The position numbers were made by a program, and so were the translations under genes. Shown in pieces: positions 31,372 to 39,143 of a DNA stretch of 39,374 nt. Source of the stretch: a virus (taxonomy: Duplodnaviria > Heunggongvirae > Uroviricota > Caudoviricetes); the IMG/VR virus record IMGVR_UViG_3300029009_000036, positions 1 through 39,374 of that record; one strand, given 5' to 3'. The notes below the pieces were generated by a model that was given only the letters and a program-made list of their open reading frames with translations, was not told the DNA's origin and did no database searches. Positions within the stretch are counted from its first letter, which is position 1, and each line of letters opens with the position of its first letter.

Positions 31372-31604
31372 GCTGCACCTCCGAGATGCTTCATGTTTTT
31401 TCCGGAGCGAAAGGCTATAAGCGGCATACTGACGCGGTAATTACGGCCCAGCGGTTCACAAATCACCTTCTGGCATTCACGGTCAACCAGGCTAACACGT
31501 AGAACATGCCCTGCAGGCGTGGTGTACCACTGCCCAACTGTAGGAATTGATGTTTTTTTACGCTGAAGCAAACGGCAAATATTGAGGATCAACGGATTAA
31601 GCAT
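31368..31604 (-). CDS. Small hypothetical early protein
   Basis: 78 aa, ATG at 31604, 4-nt overlaps with both neighbours. Confidence 0.4.
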   Translation of the reverse strand: MLNPLILNICRLLQRKKTSIPTVGQWYTTPAGHVLRVSLVDRECQKVICEPLGRNYRVSMPLIAFRSGKNMKHLGGAA

Positions 31605-32433
31605 GACGATGCCCTCCGCTGATATTCAGGAGACGGTGAATATGAAAATTAGCCTTATCCGCCAAACGAATACGTTCAGCCTGCAATTTAAGAAGTGTTT
31701 CTACCAGAACCTGATGCGCCTGCGGATCCGAAAGAGTTACCTTGCGCAGAGCACGTAGTGCAGTTGTTACATAACTGAGTTTATGTAAGTCTTCATCATT
31801 CAGACGAGCGAGGGTTGGGAGAGTAGTCATGGTGACAGCCCCTATGTTGAATTCAAAGAACTCACCACATGGGACGCCAATCACAGAGGTGGTGAGACGT
31901 ACAGGGTTGGCGTAACCGGTCAACATAGAACCCGGCGCATCTTGCGATGCCCCTGCACGCCCCACCATAATTTGGACGTAGCAATGCTCATGATACGAAA
32001 AAACCGCATGAGCGCGGTTATGCTCTATATTGAATTCCAGGACGCCAATCCCGACACCCGCTTTATAAGGTGCCTGAACAGTGTAACGTCCCGGAATGGC
32101 AGAATCAATGTGCTGGTGGTCCTTCACACTCAACAAAATCACGCCTGAATTTCCACAAAGGACTAAAGCACTCATGCGGGTAGTCTTTGCGAAGATAGAT
32201 AACGCGCTGTGTTTCTGGCTCCCAACGAATAACATGAACATAAAGTCCTCTTCCGTCACGAAACCAGCGGTTAAGTTCCTGCACAACTCGCCCCCCACAG
32301 TCAGGTAAAGTTCTCTGTGGTTACTTACAGCCAGGTGATTTGGTAATCTGCATTCATGCCGTAACAACAGGTGTTCAGCGACGCTGACCACCAGCTGTTG
32401 CGACAAACGGTTATTTGCCGTTAAACTGTTCAT
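31597..32433 (-). CDS. Hypothetical early protein
   Basis: 278 aa, ATG at 32433; no domain recognised by eye. Confidence 0.5.
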   Translation of the reverse strand: MNSLTANNRLSQQLVVSVAEHLLLRHECRLPNHLAVSNHRELYLTVGGELCRNLTAGFVTEEDFMFMLFVGSQKHSALSIFAKTTRMSALVLCGNSGVILLSVKDHQHIDSAIPGRYTVQAPYKAGVGIGVLEFNIEHNRAHAVFSYHEHCYVQIMVGRAGASQDAPGSMLTGYANPVRLTTSVIGVPCGEFFEFNIGAVTMTTLPTLARLNDEDLHKLSYVTTALRALRKVTLSDPQAHQVLVETLLKLQAERIRLADKANFHIHRLLNISGGHRHA

Positions 32434-32993
32434 GCGTTAGTTTCTCCACAGACACAAAACGCCACGACGCCCGGAGCTGCACACTCGCGGGCGTCACTCT
32501 TTTCTGGAGCGCAAAAGATTTTGTAGACCAGTGCTGCATGCTCCTGGAGCTTCGAAATTGACAGATACAACTCATCATTAATTGCTGTCTGCTCGTGTGG
32601 CTCCACTACCCCATCTTCGATTGCCGAACGAATCTGCTTTGAGTAACTCCCGATCTGTTCGATGACTTCCAGCAGGCGCTGGTTTATATCGGCGTTCTCT
32701 ACTTCCTCAATTTCAGGAAGCGATACAAACACCCCACCAGCAGACTGTGCGACAGCATCCGCAATGTAGTGAGTGCCAGCCGCGCGCTGTAAAATCATTG
32801 CCCATCCCAGCGGGAAAATCTGATCGCCATCTGCACGAAGGCGGTTGAATAAAGCGTTCTCTGTTACATCCAGCCACTCAGCAGCTTCAGCGTAACCCCC
32901 CGGCAACGCCGCGATAGTTTTTCTGACAGCTTTCACGTACCACTCAGGCTGTTTTTCTACTTTCCAGTGATGCTTACCCACGGTTAGCCTCAT
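32430..32993 (-). CDS. Hypothetical early regulatory protein (CII-like position)
   Basis: 187 aa, ATG at 32993; first gene after cro. Confidence 0.5.
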   Translation of the reverse strand: MRLTVGKHHWKVEKQPEWYVKAVRKTIAALPGGYAEAAEWLDVTENALFNRLRADGDQIFPLGWAMILQRAAGTHYIADAVAQSAGGVFVSLPEIEEVENADINQRLLEVIEQIGSYSKQIRSAIEDGVVEPHEQTAINDELYLSISKLQEHAALVYKIFCAPEKSDARECAAPGVVAFCVCGETNA

Positions 32994-33024
32994 CGTTCTG
33001 TGGTTAAAAATTGAAGGTGTTCTG

Positions 33025-33225
33025 TTAATCTTTCGGATAGATATCCGGTCTTAAGTCAGATTTCGTAATTGCACCTGACGTGCATTGCTCAAGTTTTTTA
33101 GCCAGCACAAAACTGGCTTTTTTATAACCATTGAAAACTAGCCGTAAGTAGCCTGGTGTTGAGCCAACTTTTCCGGCCAACTCGCCCTGCTGTTCTTTGG
33201 TTAAAGAGTCCCAATACGCTTTCAT
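33025..33225 (-). CDS. Cro-like HTH repressor
   Basis: ATG at 33225 (MKAYWDSLTKEQQGELAGKVGSTPGYLRLVFNGYKKASFVLAKKLEQCTS...) with GGAGGT RBS 9 nt upstream; 66 aa. Confidence 0.7.
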   Translation of the reverse strand: MKAYWDSLTKEQQGELAGKVGSTPGYLRLVFNGYKKASFVLAKKLEQCTSGAITKSDLRPDIYPKD

Positions 33226-33231
33226 ACAATA

Positions 33232-33248
33232 TGTACCTCCGATATACA
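33232..33248. promoter_or_regulatory. Operator-like site 1 (overlaps cro RBS)
   Basis: tgtacctccgatataca, consensus TGTACC-N5-NNTACA shared with two other sites. Confidence 0.45.
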
Positions 33249-33281
33249 TATTACATGATTGAGATGAACCTTCAAGATACT

Positions 33282-33298
33282 TGTACCCTATCGGTACA
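33282..33298. promoter_or_regulatory. Operator-like site 2 (cI-cro intergenic, perfect inverted repeat)
   Basis: tgtaccctatcggtaca: TGTACC / GGTACA arms with 5-bp spacer. Confidence 0.5.
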
Positions 33299-33315
33299 AA
33301 GGTTTTAATTTCGTT

Positions 33316-33990
33316 ATGAAAACAGTCCATGACATCCGGCGGTCTAACGCCAGAAAACTGAGAGATGGTGTTGGCGGGAATTCTTCCTTTGCCACCATGA
33401 TTGATCGCGAGCCAACCCAGACCAGCAGGTTTATGGGAGATGGTGCTACTAAAAATATCGGTGACAGCATGGCACGGCACATCGAAAAATGTTTCGACCT
33501 GCCTGTCGGATGGCTTGATCAAGAACACCAGACAACAAACATCACAAAAAAACCTGATGTTTCAATTACTAACAAACAAATAACGTTAGTCCCTGTCATA
33601 TCATGGGTACAGGCCGGAGCATGGAAAGAAGTTGGCTATTCTGAGGTTGATTTGAGCACAGCAGAAACTTATCCCTGCCCTGTACCCTGTGGCGAAATGA
33701 CTTATATCTTGCGGGTGATTGGTGATTCAATGATTGATGAGTACCGCCCGGGAGACATGATTTTTGTTGATCCCGAAGTCCCTGCCTGCCACGGTGACGA
33801 CGTTATTGCATTGATGCACGATACAGGCGAAACCACCTTCAAGCGATTGATAGAAGATGGAACACAGCGTTATCTCAAAGCATTAAACCCAAACTGGCCT
33901 GAGCCTTACATTAAGATTAACGGTAATTGCTCTATAATTGGTACAGTAATTTTCTCAGGAAAACCAAGAAGATACCAAATAAAGGCCTAA
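33316..33990 (+). CDS. CI-like repressor (HTH plus S24 LexA-type autopeptidase domain)
   Basis: 224 aa, ATG at 33316; C-terminal ...LRVIGDSMIDEYRPGDMIFVDPE... has GDSM Ser nucleophile context typical of S24 peptidases. Confidence 0.85.
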   Translation: MKTVHDIRRSNARKLRDGVGGNSSFATMIDREPTQTSRFMGDGATKNIGDSMARHIEKCFDLPVGWLDQEHQTTNITKKPDVSITNKQITLVPVISWVQAGAWKEVGYSEVDLSTAETYPCPVPCGEMTYILRVIGDSMIDEYRPGDMIFVDPEVPACHGDDVIALMHDTGETTFKRLIEDGTQRYLKALNPNWPEPYIKINGNCSIIGTVIFSGKPRRYQIKA

Positions 33991-34001
33991 TCAATATTTA
34001 T

Positions 34002-34026
34002 AACCTGCTTCGGCAGGTTTTTTTAT
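34002..34026 (+). terminator. Intrinsic terminator after cI
   Basis: aacctgc-ttcg-gcaggtt followed by ttttttt. Confidence 0.7.
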
Positions 34027-34028
34027 AC

Positions 34029-34056
34029 TTGACAATGTACCCTTGAGATACATAAT
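34029..34056 (+). promoter_or_regulatory. pL-like early-left promoter with embedded operator site 3 (34036-34052)
   Basis: TTGACA (34029-34034), 16-bp spacer, CATAAT (34051-34056); tgtacccttgagataca fills the spacer. Confidence 0.55.
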
Positions 34057-34474
34057 GTATCTAAAAGAAACATGCCACAGGCAAGATTAAACAAAATTTG
34101 GTTGTAACACGGCGTATGGCACATGCGTCGTTAGCGGTCTGGGGACGTTAAAGGGGACAATCCACTCCTTGCTCGGGCAAACAAACCAGGTAGCCGGAAT
34201 GTGCAAGTCAATGAGGATGCTGATAAGACGCCTAACCAGCGTGGCGATTCGGTTTGACGCCTGGGAAGAGACCAGGGTGCAACGATGAGGGCATTTATGG
34301 AACCGCGACAAAGTGTGGTGCCGTAACTGGCTAAGTGCTCTCAGCGTTGTGGTAATCCGCGAAATGGCGCGGCGGTAAGTATGGCGGGGTTACTCTTTCC
34401 CCGTTGAGGACACCGGATTGTCAGGTTGACCATACACCTGAGTGACAACCCCACCACAACAGCCACTGCTTTGG

Positions 34475-34520
34475 CGGTACCAGTTTGTACACTTGCTTCC
34501 GGCTGGTACCGCTCTTTTTA
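34475..34520 (+). terminator. Terminator-like hairpin inside the early-left leader
   Basis: Perfect 10-bp stem gcggtaccag / ctggtaccgc (34475-34484 / 34503-34512), 18-nt loop, followed by tcttttta. Confidence 0.5.
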
Positions 34521-34654
34521 CAAAACAGAGAAGAGCATCACCGGACGACGGGCTCATAACCCAATCCATCCGGGCGGCTGCACCGCAGGTGTTCTTCTCT
34601 GTTTTGTGGAGAAACCAACCGACCTTGCAGGGTCGATATGATGAGGAGCAGCAA

Positions 34655-35017
34655 ATGGCTAGCGAACGCAGTACTGATGTGCAGGCATTTATCGGGGAGC
34701 TGGACGGCGGCGTATTTGAAACCAAAATCGGCGCAGTTCTCAGTGAAGTCGCTTCCGGTGTGATGAACACGAAAACCAAAGGTAAGGTCTCGCTCAACCT
34801 GGAAATCGAACCGTTTGATGAGAACCGTGTGAAAATCAAACACAAACTCTCATATGTTCGCCCGACTAACCGCGGGGAAATTTCCGAAGAAGACACCACC
34901 GAAACGCCGATGTATGTCAATCGCGGTGGTCGCCTGACTATTCTGCAGGAAGACCAGGGACAATTACTGACTCTTGCCGGTGAGCCTGACGGAAAACTCC
35001 GCGCAGCAGGTCATTAA
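34655..35017 (+). CDS. Hypothetical early-left protein (YfdP-like)
   Basis: 120 aa, ATG at 34655 with GAGGAG RBS; ORF-track N-terminal extension lacks a start signal. Confidence 0.65.
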   Translation: MASERSTDVQAFIGELDGGVFETKIGAVLSEVASGVMNTKTKGKVSLNLEIEPFDENRVKIKHKLSYVRPTNRGEISEEDTTETPMYVNRGGRLTILQEDQGQLLTLAGEPDGKLRAAGH

Positions 35018-35907: not shown

Positions 35908-36083
35908 TTTCATTACTGCAAATGCCCCTGCGGGGGCGTTTACGGAAGCGATAATTTTAACTATTGCCGCCCCTATAAAGAACCATTAAACGATAACGTG
36001 ACGTAGCTATTGATAGTAAATGAAGCACTTGCAAAATAATTGCATTGCGTATATATACGCACATGTGTTGTATTACAGCGATA

Positions 36084-36878
36084 ATGGTAAAGCAAATGAT
36101 TAACTCTGAAGCAATTGAGCAACTAATGTGGTTATGGTCCTTATTTGACATTAAATTCTTATCTATTTTTGCCGCAGGCTTCACTATATATTTTGGCGTA
36201 CAAAAAATATCAAAAAAGGTGACAGTATCGTATTCAGCAAATGTAAGTAAAATATATGACATGCATATATCAACCATAATCCTGACTAATAAAAGAGATA
36301 ATGCAATTGCTATATCTTCAATCAATATGGAGGTTGAAGGGAAAGGGATACTACAAGTTATTAAATTTGACTCCCCTCTTCTTCTAAAGAACTATGATTC
36401 TTTAAAAGTTGAACTACCAAAATTTAGCAGCCTTTATAATAATGATGGCATAGTTAAGTTAGATATTTCTGATAAGTTTCATTTTTATATAATCACGACA
36501 TCTGGAGATGAAATCAAATGTATTTCTGAAAATAAACACGTGGCACCAAATATGAAAAACAAAATAATTCCAGACATAATAAAATTTAATGGCATTGTCT
36601 TAACAAACAGAATGTCTTATATTTTTTTCTATGCAAATGACAACGGAGAGAAATACTGCATAATAGATGCTTCATTGTCCATAAATGGCGACAACCCATT
36701 TCATTTTCATGTTCTTAAAGAAGATAAATTAAGAGATTTTTCTAGCATCCTTATTGGTTACGGATATCACCAACGGTTTAAAAGTTATGCATTATTTAAA
36801 ATAGACAACCATCTTGCTCCTTCTTTGGTTTTAAATAAATCAATGATAGAAAATAATATTATTGAAATGAATAAGTAA
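36084..36878 (+). CDS. AT-rich cargo gene: membrane-anchored protein of unknown function
   Basis: Start uncertain (ATG 36063, 36084 or 36096; track start 36045 is TTG); N-terminal TM helix LMWLWSLFDIKFLSIFAAGFTIYFGV then ~230-aa Asn/Lys/Ile-rich soluble domain; candidate promoter TTGCAA-N17-TATATA just upstream (hexamer positions approximate). Confidence 0.6.
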   Translation: MVKQMINSEAIEQLMWLWSLFDIKFLSIFAAGFTIYFGVQKISKKVTVSYSANVSKIYDMHISTIILTNKRDNAIAISSINMEVEGKGILQVIKFDSPLLLKNYDSLKVELPKFSSLYNNDGIVKLDISDKFHFYIITTSGDEIKCISENKHVAPNMKNKIIPDIIKFNGIVLTNRMSYIFFYANDNGEKYCIIDASLSINGDNPFHFHVLKEDKLRDFSSILIGYGYHQRFKSYALFKIDNHLAPSLVLNKSMIENNIIEMNK

Positions 36879-36914
36879 CTCACCGGGTGCAGCCGGTTAT
36901 GATGGAGAAATGAT

Positions 36915-37187
36915 ATGAATACCTTGTTTTTACTGATGGCTGAATTCAATACCCTAAACATTGAACTCTCAGCAGTTAGTCAAAAATACTTTGGTATGAG
37001 TCCAGCCACGGCAGAAGCAAAAGCAAACGCTTGTAAGTTGCCCGTTCCAACATATCGCATCGGCACATCACAAAAAGCAAAACGTTGCATCAATATTCAG
37101 GATCTTGCGGAATACATAGACAAAAGGCGAGAAGAAGGGCGTGCTGAGTGGGAAAGGGTCAGAACCCATAAACAAAGGCTCATTTAA
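36915..37187 (+). CDS. Excisionase-like winged-helix DNA-binding protein (PrtN/AlpA-like, unverified)
   Basis: 90 aa, ATG at 36915 with GGAGAAA RBS; MNTLFLLMAEF... recalls PrtN-family proteins; attR-proximal position opposite int mirrors torI in KplE1. Confidence 0.55.
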   Translation: MNTLFLLMAEFNTLNIELSAVSQKYFGMSPATAEAKANACKLPVPTYRIGTSQKAKRCINIQDLAEYIDKRREEGRAEWERVRTHKQRLI

Positions 37188-37194
37188 ATAGAAT

Positions 37195-37228
37195 ATGAAT
37201 AAACCCATCCAAAGGTGGGTTTATTCAT
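37195..37228. terminator. Perfect 13-bp hairpin between convergent genes
   Basis: atgaataaaccca / tgggtttattcat with 8-nt loop tccaaagg; U-rich tract on minus strand; overlaps stop of the 37221-37682 gene. Confidence 0.65.
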
Positions 37229-37682
37229 AATGTTGAAGAGCAGCGAGTATCAGTTTTTTATGCCGTTTAACCATGATTTTAGATATCTCAACTGCACATC
37301 GAACTTGTCTCATACAATGATCTGTAATGCGACCTTTTAGCACGTCGCCATATTGGATGGCTATTTTCTCTTTAATAATTTCAAGATCGAAAGCAGCATG
37401 AGCCTCAATGCAATTAACAAATGAGTCCCATTTAAGAAAATCATGGTCCTCTCTATTAATTTCGACCTGACAAGCCATAAGATCATTGTTTCTCTTAATA
37501 AATTCATTTATATCTGAATTTATTAGAAGAACTAAAAGAGGTTCACAGCAAACAACCACCATATATTTTACTTTAGGTGGGGTCGTAAAATCACAATGAA
37601 GATACAATACATCACCGGGTGATATACCTCTTTCACGACTAAAATTAGCCTTAAAATCAGGAGGGAAACAATCACCCAGCAT
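37221..37682 (-). CDS. Uncharacterised partner protein of Panacea-domain gene (candidate toxin/effector)
   Basis: 153 aa from ATG 37682 (TTG 37691 alternative); starts 6 nt after Panacea-gene stop; AT-rich; no domain recognised. Confidence 0.6.
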   Translation of the reverse strand: MLGDCFPPDFKANFSRERGISPGDVLYLHCDFTTPPKVKYMVVVCCEPLLVLLINSDINEFIKRNNDLMACQVEINREDHDFLKWDSFVNCIEAHAAFDLEIIKEKIAIQYGDVLKGRITDHCMRQVRCAVEISKIMVKRHKKLILAALQHYE

Positions 37683-37687
37683 AAGTA

Positions 37688-38269
37688 TCAATATCCGTTC
37701 TTCAGATAATCCAGTATTAATTTGCTATTTTTTAGCTGTGCAACTATCGATTCCAAAGACATCTCACCATTGTGATCTGCCTGTTCCCATGCCGCGTCAT
37801 GGCTCATGGTTCTGATAGCTTCAAAGGACATGTTTCCAAGCATCGCGATAGACTTATCAATACACTCTAAATCTGAGTCACTAAAAAAGTCTTCATCAGC
37901 TTCACGGCTCGGCACAATCATCATACCTGATACAGAAAATGCTTTTCGCACAGAATCGACATCACAACCATTAGGAATGTAACGTCCATCTCCACGAGCA
38001 ATTTTTATAATATCGTATGTGTTGCTTGCTACAGGCCCATCCTTCATAGCGTTATAGTGATCGCCCGTTATGAGGCGTCCAAAACTTTCAAGGTGAAACC
38101 TGTCAGCATAATAAAGAATTTTTCCGACATGATAGATATCTGGGATCGGTGCTTTAGAGGCGACGTACAGAATGGCCTCTAAAGCCTTTTCTGAATCAAA
38201 CCTTACATTTAGCATCAATACACCCTTCATCCAAACAACATCGTCAAGCTCTGGCAAATGCAACCGCAT
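37688..38269 (-). CDS. Panacea-domain (DUF4065, SocA-like) protein, candidate antitoxin
   Basis: 193 aa, ATG at 38269 with AGGAGG RBS; core ...KILYYADRFHLESFGRLITGDHYNAMKDGPVASNTYDIIK... fits the K.LYYA....G.P......A...GPV...Y pattern I associate with DUF4065. Confidence 0.65.
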   Translation of the reverse strand: MRLHLPELDDVVWMKGVLMLNVRFDSEKALEAILYVASKAPIPDIYHVGKILYYADRFHLESFGRLITGDHYNAMKDGPVASNTYDIIKIARGDGRYIPNGCDVDSVRKAFSVSGMMIVPSREADEDFFSDSDLECIDKSIAMLGNMSFEAIRTMSHDAAWEQADHNGEMSLESIVAQLKNSKLILDYLKNGY

Positions 38270-38390
38270 CCGCCTCCTGCAATCTTAAAGTCTTCACCTA
38301 CGCTAGGTCAATTGAAGTGATGAGCAAATGATGCTTTCTAAGAATAACAGGTTCCCAATAGGCTCCCACAAAGTGTATAACTACTTGTTT

Positions 38391-38472
38391 TTCAAAAACG
38401 GTACATCCTATCGAGCATCGGGGCAATCGAGAAACGGTAAGCGGGATAAACAGTGTGTGATTCTGCTGGCAT
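38391..38472 (-). pseudogene. dusA: Displaced original 5' end of dusA (remnant at attR)
   Basis: Minus-strand ATG 38472: [21 protein letters not shown] then diverges to a stop; ...RFSIAPMLD matches the restored dusA copy at the left end. Confidence 0.6.
38411..38427. other. attR core candidate
   Basis: tcgagcatcggggcaat, direct repeat of 109-125. Confidence 0.5.
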
Positions 38473-38627
38473 GGCGACTTTTTAAGCATCTGGTAAATTG
38501 GGGGCGCTACTATAGCATAACGAATATGCGATCAGGCAATGTGACAGCCATGACACCCTGTTCTCGGCGTTTAAGTGAGAACTATGATAAAGTAAGGACA
38601 TTCTTAACCCCACTGTCGAGGTGCCCA

Positions 38628-39143
38628 ATGGAAAAGACCACAACGCAGGAGTTATTAGCGCAGGCTGAAAAAATCTGCGCACAGCGTAATGTGCGCCTGA
38701 CCCCACAGCGCCTCGAAGTGTTGCGCCTGATGAGTCTGCAGGATGGCGCTATCAGCGCTTATGATCTGCTTGATTTGCTGCGCGAAGCTGAACCGCAAGC
38801 CAAGCCGCCAACGGTTTATCGCGCGCTGGAGTTTCTGCTTGAACAAGGTTTTGTGCATAAGGTGGAATCCACCAACAGTTATGTGCTCTGTCATCTGTTC
38901 GATCAGCCCACCCATACTTCAGCCATGTTTATTTGCGATCGCTGCGGCGCGGTGAAAGAAGAATGTGCTGAAGGCGTGGAAGACATCATGCATACGCTGG
39001 CGGCAAAAATGGGTTTTGCCCTGCGGCATAATGTTATTGAAGCACATGGATTATGTTCAGCATGTGTAGAAGTAGAAGCGTGTCGTCATCCTGAACAGTG
39101 CCATCATGACCACTCTATTCAGGTGAAAAAGAAACCTCGCTAA
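38628..39143 (+). CDS. zur: Zinc uptake regulator Zur (Fur family)
   Basis: 171 aa from ATG 38628: MEKTTTQELLAQAEKICAQRNVRLTPQRLEVLRLMSLQDGAISAYDLLDLLREAEPQAKPPTVYRALEFL...; ORF-track extension upstream has no support. Confidence 0.9.
   Translation: MEKTTTQELLAQAEKICAQRNVRLTPQRLEVLRLMSLQDGAISAYDLLDLLREAEPQAKPPTVYRALEFLLEQGFVHKVESTNSYVLCHLFDQPTHTSAMFICDRCGAVKEECAEGVEDIMHTLAAKMGFALRHNVIEAHGLCSACVEVEACRHPEQCHHDHSIQVKKKPR

What the first reader, a model, noticed from the sequence alone, without database searches (positions are those of the whole stretch)
33232..34052. Three copies of a 17-bp operator motif TGTACC-N5-NNTACA at cro, cI-cro intergenic and pL-like promoter
Sites at 33232-33248 (over the cro RBS), 33282-33298 (perfect inverted repeat) and 34036-34052 (inside the pL-like spacer) share TGTACC...TACA arms. 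This mirrors the OR/OL layout of lambdoid immunity regions and defines the likely CI/Cro specificity.
Basis: seen in the sequence. Interest (0 to 1): 0.4.

Follow-up and report, generated by a model that had tools for sequence, protein, structure and literature searches.

The report
CI/Cro operators of e14/SfV-type prophage
The three repeats are real and are almost certainly binding sites for the prophage's CI repressor and Cro, part of a five-site lambda-like switch, but this immunity region is the well-known e14/SfV one, so the finding is correct and ordinary.

Summary
Observation confirmed. TGTACC-N7-TACA occurs exactly at 33232-33248, 33282-33298 (a perfect palindrome) and 34036-34052, and nowhere else in 39 kb (0.06 expected by chance).

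Interpretation supported and extended. There are five sites, not three:
- OR1: 33232-33248
- OR2: 33265-33281
- OR3: 33282-33298
- OL1: 34036-34052
- OL2: 34056-34072

Across 18 diverged relatives from many Enterobacterales genera (CI 73-99% identical), the 6-bp arms are nearly invariant. The 5-bp centres and the surrounding intergenic DNA vary freely, and site spacing is fixed.

A Pseudomonas phage whose repressor shares only the N-terminal domain (58% identity) has the same three-site OR. A relative with identical flanks but a swapped cI/cro cassette has none of these sites.

The sites overlie pR, a probably leaderless pRM, and pL.

The repressor is 222/224 identical to E. coli K-12 YmfK (CohE, e14 prophage). 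Cro is 65/66 identical to YmfT (CroE). This immunity region occurs in 1,324 of 5,426 complete E. coli genomes. The SfV GenBank record already marks window 33231-33299 as a 'putative operator region'.

Protein binding itself has not been tested. Novelty and interest are low.

One side observation: the leader downstream of pL carries a conserved structured-RNA-like element with no Rfam family.

The parts
33232..33248 (.). OR1: TGTACC-TCCGA-TATACA. It covers the predicted pR start point and the cro Shine-Dalgarno sequence, and abuts the pR -10 element.
   Evidence: Exact motif match. PWM score 19.4 bits. Consensus aTGTACCTCC....TACAt in 18 diverse relatives.
33265..33281 (.). OR2 (new here): TGAACC-TTCAA-GATACT, a weak site. 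It straddles the pR -35 element, and its pRM-proximal edge touches the pRM -35 element (centre about -43 from the cI ATG).
   Evidence: A 3-mismatch hit directly abutting OR3. PWM score 8.8 bits, fifth best in the window. The left arm TGAACC is invariant in all 18 diverse relatives even though it lies in the pR spacer. The spacing is fixed in 104 loci.
33282..33298 (.). OR3: TGTACC-CTATC-GGTACA, a perfect palindrome. It overlaps the pRM -35 element and spacer.
   Evidence: 22.5 bits. The arms are invariant and the 5-bp centre differs in nearly every relative.
34036..34052 (.). OL1: TGTACC-CTTGA-GATACA, lying in the spacer of pL.
   Evidence: 22.3 bits. Consensus TTGACAaTGTACC.....G.TACATAAT is conserved in 18 relatives.
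34056..34072 (.). OL2 (new here): TGTATC-TAAAA-GAAACA, covering the predicted pL start point, 20 bp centre-to-centre from OL1.
   Evidence: A 20-nt direct repeat of OL1 at 70% identity. PWM score 12.3 bits, fourth best in the window. The left arm TGTACC is conserved in relatives. Homology with SfV ends exactly at 34072.
33248..33275 (-). Predicted pR: -35 TTGAAG (33275-33270), 16-bp spacer, -10 TAATAT (33253-33248).
   Evidence: Read from the sequence. The conservation pattern across relatives is TTG...TAnnnT. Not called by the strict consensus scan (8/12 match). Inferred.
33281..33309 (+). Predicted pRM: -35 TTGTAC (33281-33286), 17-bp spacer, -10 TTTAAT (33304-33309). The cI ATG lies 6 nt after the -10 element, implying a leaderless cI mRNA.
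   Evidence: CTTG and T.TAAT are conserved. The distance from TAAT to the ATG is fixed (6 nt in 16 of 18 sequences) and there is no conserved Shine-Dalgarno sequence. Inferred.
34029..34056 (+). pL-like promoter: TTGACA-N16-CATAAT.
   Evidence: 11/12 consensus match. Both hexamers are invariant in 18 relatives.
33316..33990 (+). cI repressor gene (224 aa), equivalent to YmfK/CohE of prophage e14.
   Evidence: Peptidase_S24. Lambda CI C-terminal-domain matches. N-terminal-domain profile match to 5D50_A. 222/224 identical to K-12 YmfK.
33025..33225 (-). cro gene (66 aa), equivalent to YmfT/CroE of e14.
   Evidence: Weak YdaS/HTH_3 matches. 65/66 identical to K-12 YmfT. Annotated as cro in SfV and cdtI.
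34002..34026 (+). Intrinsic terminator of the cI transcript, immediately upstream of pL.
   Evidence: Terminator scan. Fold -10.3 kcal/mol, z=-4.1. Annotated as a terminator in SfV and Ayreon.
33010..34089 (.). Approximate extent of the exchangeable immunity cassette (cro, OR, cI, terminator, pL/OL).
   Evidence: Phage PhiR40_1 matches the window up to 33009 and again from 34090, and carries an unrelated cI/cro in between.

Best explanation
The three repeats belong to a set of five 17-bp operators with consensus TGTACC-N5-GGTACA. They are most likely bound by dimers of the prophage CI repressor (YmfK/CohE type) and by Cro (YmfT/CroE type), forming a lambda-like bistable switch.

In the lysogen (inferred): CI occupies OL1 and OL2, blocking pL. 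It also occupies OR1 and OR2, blocking pR. OR1 sits on the pR start point and the cro ribosome-binding site. OR2 straddles the pR -35 element. The OR1 and OR2 centres are 33 bp apart (about three helical turns) and the OL1 and OL2 centres are 20 bp apart (about two turns). Both spacings place dimers on the same face of the DNA, which fits pairwise cooperativity.

OR2 ends at the first base of the pRM -35 element, centred about -43 from the cI ATG. This is the geometry from which lambda CI at OR2 activates pRM. OR3 lies inside pRM, so binding of excess CI, or of Cro, there would shut off cI.

cI appears to be translated from a leaderless mRNA.

DNA damage would induce the prophage by RecA-stimulated self-cleavage of CI at Ala100-Gly101.

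What is shown: the sites, their uniqueness in the window, their conservation pattern, their co-inheritance with this CI/Cro pair, and the domain make-up of CI. What is inferred: the promoter assignments, which protein binds which site and in what order, cooperativity, activation, and the leaderless mRNA.
For: Uniqueness in the window:
- The motif occurs only at these places (0.06 expected).
- A weight matrix built from relatives alone ranks the five sites as the top five of 39 kb, with a gap to 3.2 bits for the next hit.

Conservation typical of protein-binding sites:
- In 18 diverged sequences from many Enterobacterales genera, 44/60 arm columns are invariant, against 5/25 centre columns and 17/70 other intergenic columns (Fisher p=8e-6 and 3e-8).
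- The 5 invariant centre columns are the cro Shine-Dalgarno sequence and the pR -35 element.
- Site spacing is identical in 104 (OR) and 101 (OL) fetched loci.

Link to this CI/Cro pair:
- The CI recognition-helix region (dREPTQtSR) is conserved wherever the arms are conserved.
- Pseudomonas phage CF79a shares only the repressor N-terminal domain (58% identity, with IDREPTQVSR) plus a 33%-identical Cro. It has TGTACCTCCTGGGTACA, TGTACCGTCAAGGTTCT and TGTACATTTCTGGTACA in the same order at its divergent promoter region.
- Heteroimmune phage PhiR40_1 has 94-99% identical flanks but a different cI/cro, and no site within 3 mismatches.
- Repressor loci at 28-37% identity carry other palindromes.

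Repressor identity:
- CI has an S24 domain, the cleavage motif and the Ser/Lys dyad, and a repressor-type N-terminal domain.
- It is 99% identical to e14 CohE. The literature calls CohE an SOS-sensitive CI-like repressor (PMC8249747; bioRxiv 10.1101/2020.11.19.390815) and lists cohE among the Keio-essential genes, together with other prophage repressors (PMC5992433).

Prior annotation and boundaries:
- The SfV record annotates window 33231-33299 as a putative operator region.
- The boundaries of the exchangeable cassette enclose OL2.
Against: No binding, footprint or transcription-start data were available, and no held paper gives operator sequences for this repressor.

OR2 (8.8 bits) scores below what shuffled sequence reaches by chance: the best score per shuffle averaged 10.0 bits and peaked at 16.2. 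OL2 (12.3 bits) is above that mean but below the 16.2-bit peak. Both weak sites therefore rest on position and conservation, and part of OR2's conservation is the pR -35 element.

OR2 and OR3 abut with no spacer (centres 17 bp apart), unlike lambda, so simultaneous occupancy is uncertain.

The site predicted to be strongest (OR3, a perfect palindrome) sits on pRM rather than pR. This does not fit a simple lambda-like affinity order.

pR matches the consensus at only 8/12 positions, and the predicted pRM -10 element has a variable second base.

CI and Cro cannot be told apart as the binding protein by comparative data, because they always co-occur.
Confidence: 0.85

Rival explanations
1. Only the three strong sites (OR1, OR3, OL1) are operators. 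The two weak sites (OR2, OL2) are conserved for other reasons, such as promoter elements or transcript 5' ends, so the switch would be a two-site OR plus a one-site OL.
For: OR2 scores 8.8 bits, below the mean best score of shuffled sequence (10.0 bits). OL2 scores 12.3 bits, below the highest shuffle score of 16.2 bits. The OR2 centre holds the pR -35 TTG. The OR2 right arm and the OL2 right arm vary among relatives.
Against: The OR2 left arm TGAACC is invariant in all 18 diverse relatives although it lies in the pR spacer, where RNA polymerase imposes no sequence requirement. The OL2 left arm TGTACC is conserved and in register with OL1 at a 20-bp repeat. Both are the 4th and 5th best matrix hits in 39 kb and lie next to strong sites. 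The Pseudomonas phage has a middle site at the same place.
Confidence: 0.12
2. The sites are bound by a different regulator, for example host LexA or the CII-like YmfL protein encoded next to cro, rather than by CI/Cro.
For: CI carries a LexA-like C-terminal domain, and a CP76/CII-family gene lies at 32430-32993. No binding data exist.
Against: The LexA box is CTGT-N8-ACAG, whereas these sites have TGT-N11-ACA. PhiR40_1 keeps YmfL (its annotated YmfL gene overlaps the 94% identical left flank) but has a different cI/cro and none of the sites. The motif follows the CI N-terminal domain into a Pseudomonas phage.
Confidence: 0.02
3. The palindromes act as RNA or DNA hairpins (terminator or attenuator) rather than as protein-binding sites.
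For: The terminator scan lists 33281-33299 as a hairpin followed by a T-rich tail. The arms are conserved while the loop varies.
Against: The arms never show compensatory changes: they are invariant, as expected for base-specific protein contacts. OR1, OR2, OL1 and OL2 are imperfect palindromes that would form only 3-5 pairs. The OR3 hairpin folds at -7.9 kcal/mol with z=-1.9, and 8 of 200 shuffles fold as well. The same arms recur at three promoters.
Confidence: 0.01

Closest known systems
Immunity region of E. coli K-12 cryptic prophage e14 (ymfK/cohE - ymfT/croE) and of Shigella phage SfV (also cdtI, SfIV, Ayreon, 2H10 and Stx2c-converting phages)
   Same: It is the same cassette. CI is 222/224 identical and Cro 65/66 identical to the K-12 proteins. 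K-12 e14 carries the same five sites. DNA identity is 95-99.7%. The SfV record marks window 33231-33299 as a 'putative operator region'.
   Different: There are small allelic differences. The OR1 right arm is TATACA here and TGTACA in e14. The OL2 left arm is TGTATC here and TGTACC in e14. The OR3 centre also differs. The DNA downstream of OL2 differs between the window, e14 and SfV. The public records I could read do not list individual operators or the OL sites.
Bacteriophage lambda OR/OL with CI and Cro
   Same: Shared features: divergent cI and cro; three 17-bp partially symmetric operators overlapping pR and pRM; further operators on pL on the far side of cI; a repressor with an S24 self-cleavage domain; OR2-like geometry next to the pRM -35 element; and a probable leaderless cI mRNA (plus established knowledge of lambda).
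   Different: The operator sequence and the repressor N-terminal domain are unrelated. There are two OL sites here rather than three. OR spacing is 33 and 17 bp between centres, against 24 and 23 bp in lambda, with OR2 and OR3 abutting. The perfect palindrome lies on pRM. OL is only about 0.8 kb from OR. There are no rex genes. According to PMC3851460, SfV-type phages have no N, cII or cIII homologues, although a CP76-family CII-like gene is present here.
Rep repressor of Salmonella phage SPC32H (PDB 5D50) and other solved 'phage repressor protein CI' N-terminal domains (7NKV, 8C3K, 8C3L)
   Same: These are the closest solved relatives of the CI N-terminal DNA-binding domain (profile E=2.8e-6 over residues 1-74; E=0.002-0.004 for 7NKV and 8C3L).
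   Different: The Rep sequence gives no match to the S24 self-cleavage domain; only its residues 2-75 align with this CI. The PDB entry is a repressor-antirepressor complex, which I state from memory.
Repressor region of Pseudomonas phage vB_Pae_CF79a
   Same: It has the same N-terminal domain (58% identity), a Cro homologue (33% identity), and three TGTAC-type sites in the same order, including the one over the cro-side Shine-Dalgarno sequence.
   Different: The C-terminal part of its repressor aligns only over residues 1-71 with this CI. No OL-type sites were found downstream of its repressor gene.

Membership tests
Lambdoid CI/Cro immunity switch (OR/OL type) | Divergently transcribed repressor and cro genes separated by a short regulatory region | tested here: met
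   cro is at 33025-33225 (minus strand) and cI at 33316-33990 (plus strand), 90 bp apart. They are annotated as cro and cI in SfV and cdtI.
Lambdoid CI/Cro immunity switch (OR/OL type) | Repressor with a C-terminal S24 self-cleavage domain, an Ala-Gly site and a Ser/Lys dyad | tested here: met
   Peptidase_S24 E=1.5e-26. Lambda CI C-terminal domain E=1.9e-9. VQAG|AW at residues 99-103, GDSM with Ser138, and TFKRL with Lys176, all conserved in relatives.
Lambdoid CI/Cro immunity switch (OR/OL type) | Repressor N-terminal DNA-binding domain of the phage-repressor type | tested here: met
   Pfam finds no helix-turn-helix domain. However, a 15-sequence profile of residues 1-77 matches the solved repressor N-terminal domains 5D50_A (E=2.8e-6) and 7NKV_A (E=0.0018).
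Lambdoid CI/Cro immunity switch (OR/OL type) | Several partially symmetric operators of one consensus overlapping the divergent promoters (OR) | tested here: met
   Three 17-bp sites at 33232-33298, with conserved arms and variable centres. Their overlap with pR and pRM is inferred from conserved hexamers.
Lambdoid CI/Cro immunity switch (OR/OL type) | A second operator cluster on an early-left promoter beyond cI (OL/pL) | tested here: met
   OL1 lies in the spacer and OL2 at the start point of TTGACA-N16-CATAAT.
Lambdoid CI/Cro immunity switch (OR/OL type) | Operators are inherited with the cI/cro alleles as an exchangeable immunity cassette | tested here: met
   PhiR40_1 has the same flanks, a different cI/cro and no such site. 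The SfV homology boundary is at the end of OL2.
Lambdoid CI/Cro immunity switch (OR/OL type) | Sequence-specific binding of CI and Cro to the operators, with ordered and cooperative occupancy | not testable with these tools
   No binding data were found in the held literature.
e14/SfV immunity type (YmfK/CohE - YmfT/CroE) | Near-identity of repressor, Cro and operator region to the e14 and SfV alleles | tested here: met
   99% and 98% protein identity to K-12. 95-97% DNA identity to e14 and SfV. The same five sites are present in K-12 e14.
LexA (SOS) box | CTGT-N8-ACAG, a 16-bp palindrome | tested here: not met
   The sites have TGT and ACA separated by 11 bp and lack the flanking C/G.
Intrinsic terminator or regulatory hairpin | Stable stem maintained by compensatory changes, followed by a U tract | tested here: not met
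   Flagged by the scan at 33281-33299, but z is only -1.9 and the arms are invariant rather than covarying.

The most novel reading that the evidence does not exclude
The five-site layout is an old, rigid cassette shared from Enterobacterales to Pseudomonas phages. In it, OR2 and OR3 abut with no spacer (centres 16-17 bp apart), and the perfectly symmetric site sits on pRM.

This leaves open a switch that works differently from lambda. Occupancy of OR2 and OR3 could be mutually exclusive. CI held at OR2 by cooperation with OR1 would then both activate pRM and keep OR3 free, while Cro (or excess CI) at OR3 would displace it. The decision would be made by competition for overlapping space rather than by graded affinities.
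Probability: 0.2. Interest if true: 0.45.

Novelty: already known. Interest (0 to 1): 0.2.

Why it matters
The practical value is annotation. The analysis gives a concrete, testable binding motif and five site coordinates for two E. coli K-12 transcription factors, CohE/YmfK and CroE/YmfT. I found no published operator sequences for either. The same cassette controls induction of prophages that carry Stx2c, Cdt-I and Shigella O-antigen-modifying genes, and it occurs in about a quarter of complete E. coli genomes. It does not change how lambdoid switches are understood.

Tried and rejected
Literature:
- I tried to read the SfV genome paper, the e14 analysis paper and the cdtI paper by PMC id or DOI. 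None is held.
- Full-text searches for the motif, SfV, e14, ymfK, CohE and CroE found no description of these operators.
- Two hits that contained 'TGTACC' were only primer sequences or unrelated motifs.
- The Gifsy antirepressor paper gave no operator sequences.

Alternative readings rejected:
- A LexA box is rejected on spacing.
- An RNA hairpin is rejected on fold energy and lack of covariation.
- A third OL site was sought upstream of pL -35 and downstream of OL2 and was not found consistently.
- Distant repressor homologues at 28-37% identity do not carry the motif. They are uninformative about layout but agree with co-variation of protein and site.

Other negative results:
- The strict promoter scan did not call pR or pRM, so these rest on conservation only.
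- For the leader RNA, tRNA search and Rfam at both thresholds gave nothing.

Not run: structure prediction and the large protein searches. They would not bear on DNA binding.
Full report
**1. The observation**

TGTACC-N7-TACA matches nowhere else on either strand of the 39,374-bp window. Dinucleotide-preserving shuffles give 0.06 matches on average, and none of 100 reached the observed count. Against the idealised palindrome TGTACC-N5-GGTACA, only these three sites lie within 2 mismatches.

**2. The surroundings**

- A 66-codon cro-like gene runs leftward from 33225, and a 224-codon repressor gene runs rightward from 33316.
- The repressor has a Peptidase_S24 domain (E=1.5e-26) and matches the lambda CI C-terminal domain.
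- It carries the lambda-like cleavage motif VQAG|AW (Ala100-Gly101), the catalytic GDSM (Ser138) and TFKRL (Lys176).
- Pfam finds no helix-turn-helix domain in its first 75 residues. A profile of that domain from 15 relatives does match solved phage repressor DNA-binding domains (5D50_A, E=2.8e-6; 7NKV_A, E=0.0018).
- cI is followed by an intrinsic terminator (34002-34026).
- Immediately after the terminator comes a strong co-oriented promoter, TTGACA-N16-CATAAT (34029-34056; 11/12 match).
- Next to cro lie a CP76/CII-family gene and an Ash-family ORF.
- This is the gene order of a lambdoid immunity region.

**3. Two more sites**

- The 3-mismatch scan lists 33265-33281 (TGAACCTTCAAGATACT), which directly abuts the palindrome, and 34056-34072 (TGTATCTAAAAGAAACA), which lies 3 bp after the pL site.
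- The repeat finder reports the two pL sites as a 20-bp direct repeat.
- I built a weight matrix only from the strong sites of relatives, leaving the window out. The five best hits in the whole window are exactly these five sites (22.5, 22.3, 19.4, 12.3 and 8.8 bits), and the sixth best is 3.2 bits.
- The two weak sites are not significant by score alone. The best score per mononucleotide shuffle averaged 10.0 bits and peaked at 16.2. Their standing rests on position and conservation.

**4. Comparative evidence**

A scan of one genome per species returned repressor homologues at 73-87% identity. They come from Pseudocitrobacter, Klebsiella, Leclercia, Atlantibacter, Phytobacter, Enterobacter, Pantoea, Trabulsiella, Kluyvera, Limnobaculum, Rahnella, Edwardsiella and Entomohabitans, plus one contig labelled Martelella.

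Aligned with the window, the regulatory regions read:
- OR: aTGTACCTCC....TACAt..TaCa..a...a.aTGAACC..cAAG..aCTTGTACC.....GgTACa.....t.taAt......ATG
- OL: cTTGACAaTGTACC.....G.TACATAATGTAcc....ag

Invariant columns make up 44/60 in the operator arms, 5/25 in the 5-bp centres and 17/70 in the remaining intergenic DNA (Fisher p=8e-6 and 3e-8). The five invariant centre columns are the cro Shine-Dalgarno sequence inside OR1 and the pR -35 TTG inside OR2.

The centres of OR3 and OL1 differ in almost every genus while their arms do not. That is the signature of base-specific contacts at two half-sites. It is not the signature of a hairpin, which would show compensatory changes.

Spacing is rigid: OR1, 16 bp, OR2, 0 bp, OR3; and OL1, TAA, OL2. 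This holds in 104 and 101 fetched loci respectively. The predicted recognition-helix segment of CI (dREPTQtSR) is conserved across the same set.

**5. The motif follows the CI/Cro pair, not the neighbourhood**

- Pseudomonas phage vB_Pae_CF79a has a regulator that shares only residues 1-71 with this CI (58% identity, IDREPTQVSR retained) and a 33%-identical Cro. Its divergent region contains TGTACCTCCTGGGTACA (over the cro-side Shine-Dalgarno sequence), TGTACCGTCAAGGTTCT and TGTACATTTCTGGTACA in the same order, and the last two are again contiguous.
- Phage PhiR40_1 matches the window at 94% up to 33009 and at 99% from 34090 onward. In between it carries an unrelated XRE-type cI/cro, and it has no site within 3 mismatches of the motif. 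Its regulatory DNA instead repeats a GCGCAA-type motif.
- Repressor homologues at 28-37% identity have other palindromes.
- Homology with SfV stops at 34072, the last base of OL2. The exchangeable cassette is therefore about 33010-34089 and includes all five sites.

**6. Promoters and mechanism (inferred)**

pR:
- On the minus strand, the conserved pattern TTG (33275-33273), then 16 bp, then TAnnnT (33253-48) defines pR. The invariant positions are those that matter most in sigma-70 -10 elements.
- OR1 begins at the last base of that -10 element. It covers the predicted start point (about 33240) and the Shine-Dalgarno sequence.
- OR2 straddles the -35 element.

pRM:
- On the plus strand, the invariant CTTG (the -35 element TTGTAC, 33281-33286), a 17-bp spacer and T.TAAT (33304-33309) define pRM.
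- TAAT lies a fixed 6 nt from the cI ATG in 16 of 18 sequences, and no Shine-Dalgarno sequence is conserved. cI is therefore probably leaderless, as in lambda.
- OR3 lies inside pRM.
- OR2 ends at the first base of the pRM -35 element, centred about -43. This is the lambda OR2 geometry for positive control.

pL:
- OL1 fills the pL spacer and OL2 covers the pL start.

Centre distances of 33 bp (OR1-OR2) and 20 bp (OL1-OL2) are close to whole numbers of helical turns.

The resulting model is the one given under best explanation. None of these steps has been shown experimentally here.

**7. What it is in known terms**

- The region is 99.7% identical to phage cdtI, about 98-99% identical to Stx2c-converting phages, Ayreon and 2H10, and 97% identical to SfV up to OL2.
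- It is 95% identical to the ymfK-ymfT region of prophage e14 in E. coli K-12.
- CI is 222/224 identical to YmfK (CohE), and Cro is 65/66 identical to YmfT (CroE).
- K-12 e14 has the same five sites.
- The cassette is present in 1,324 of 5,426 complete E. coli genomes, and IMG/VR holds more than 500 matches.
- The SfV GenBank record (U82619.2) annotates a 'putative operator region' that maps to window 33231-33299, that is, from OR1 to OR3.
- The held literature calls CohE an SOS-sensitive CI-like repressor and lists cohE among Keio-essential genes alongside other prophage repressors. I found no paper that gives operator sequences or binding data, and the SfV and e14 genome papers are not held.

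**8. Rivals**

- LexA does not fit: its box is CTGT-N8-ACAG, whereas here TGT and ACA are 11 bp apart.
- A hairpin role does not fit: the OR3 fold has z=-1.9, the arms are invariant rather than covarying, and the other four sites are poor palindromes.
- Another regulator is unlikely, because the motif is lost when only cI/cro are exchanged.
- The main open point is whether the two weak sites are functional, and how OR2 and OR3, which abut, are occupied.

**9. Verdict**

The site set is extended from three to five, with promoter assignments. This is the known e14/SfV immunity type, and its OR is already flagged in a public record. Novelty is therefore 'already known' and interest is low (0.2).

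**10. Noticed in passing**

The roughly 600-nt ORF-free leader between pL and the yfdP-like gene folds unusually well (z=-4.4). It contains at 34096-34280 a conserved element with these properties:
- It also lies after tRNA-Ile upstream of ban in P1/P7 and before tRNA-Arg in TL-2011b-type phages, always in the sense orientation.
- A 12-sequence alignment gives 39 predicted pairs. Six show compensatory changes, all in two terminal hairpins, and the rest are invariant.
- No Rfam family and no tRNA matches it.
- It is followed by a terminator-like hairpin with a U tract (34476-34520) and by a very stable long hairpin (34520-34607, z=-6.8). The 5' arm of the long hairpin starts right after that U tract, and a shorter alternative hairpin uses the tract itself, so the structures may compete.

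Other items are listed in the notes.

Noticed in passing
window 34096-34280 (+), within the ORF-free leader 34060-34655: A conserved structured-RNA-like element lies downstream of pL. The same element (about 78-83% identical, with a 24-nt block AACCAGGTAGCCGGAATGTGCAAG identical in all copies retrieved) follows tRNA-Ile upstream of ban in P1/P7 and precedes tRNA-Arg in TL-2011b-type phages. It is always in the sense orientation. RNAalifold predicts 39 pairs, of which 6 show compensatory changes (hairpins ACGC/GCGU<->GGGA/UCCC and CCUGG/CCAGG<->CCUCG/CGAGG<->GCCGG/CCGGC). The leader as a whole folds with z=-4.4. There is no Rfam or tRNA match. Function is unknown; it could be a stable RNA or a cis-acting leader.
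   Followed up: partly
window 34476-34607 (+): A terminator-like hairpin (10-bp stem, then UCUUUUU) is followed by a very stable long hairpin of about 88 nt closed by a 20-bp helix (-54.6 kcal/mol for the 121-nt fold, z=-6.8). The long hairpin's 5' arm begins directly after the U tract, and a shorter alternative hairpin uses the tract itself. The arrangement looks like an attenuator placed ahead of the yfdP-like gene.
   Followed up: partly
window 31885-31972 (-) and 31997-32073 (-): Rfam matches to C4 antisense RNA (80 bits) and isrK (60 bits) lie inside the Ash-family ORF 31597-32433. SfV annotates this ORF as 'immunity region' (orf37). It would be a second, RNA-based immunity module downstream of cro and the CII-like gene.
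   Followed up: no
window 35950-37700: A low-GC island (GC 0.29-0.36, against about 0.48 in the flanks). It holds a 277-codon ORF (36045-36878, +) with no Pfam match, and a Panacea/SocA-like antitoxin gene (37688-38269, -) followed by a 155-codon partner ORF (37221-37691, -). The last two are probably a toxin-antitoxin pair.
   Followed up: no
window 38328-39143 (+): A 271-codon ORF with a FUR-family domain (E=1.9e-14) lies in the early-left arm of the prophage.
   Followed up: no
loci L004-L013, L017, L021 and L111, just after OL2: e14-type relatives from many genera share a different, strongly conserved pL leader (ACAGGCAGGACGCCCACGAAGTAGCC). In the window this is replaced after ...ACAGGCAAGA (about 34084).
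   Followed up: no
whole window outside 33200-34100: With the operator weight matrix, the best score outside the immunity region is 3.2 bits, whereas mononucleotide shuffles of the window reach 10 bits on average. This could reflect avoidance of stray operator-like sequences, or simply depletion of GTAC and TA.
   Followed up: no
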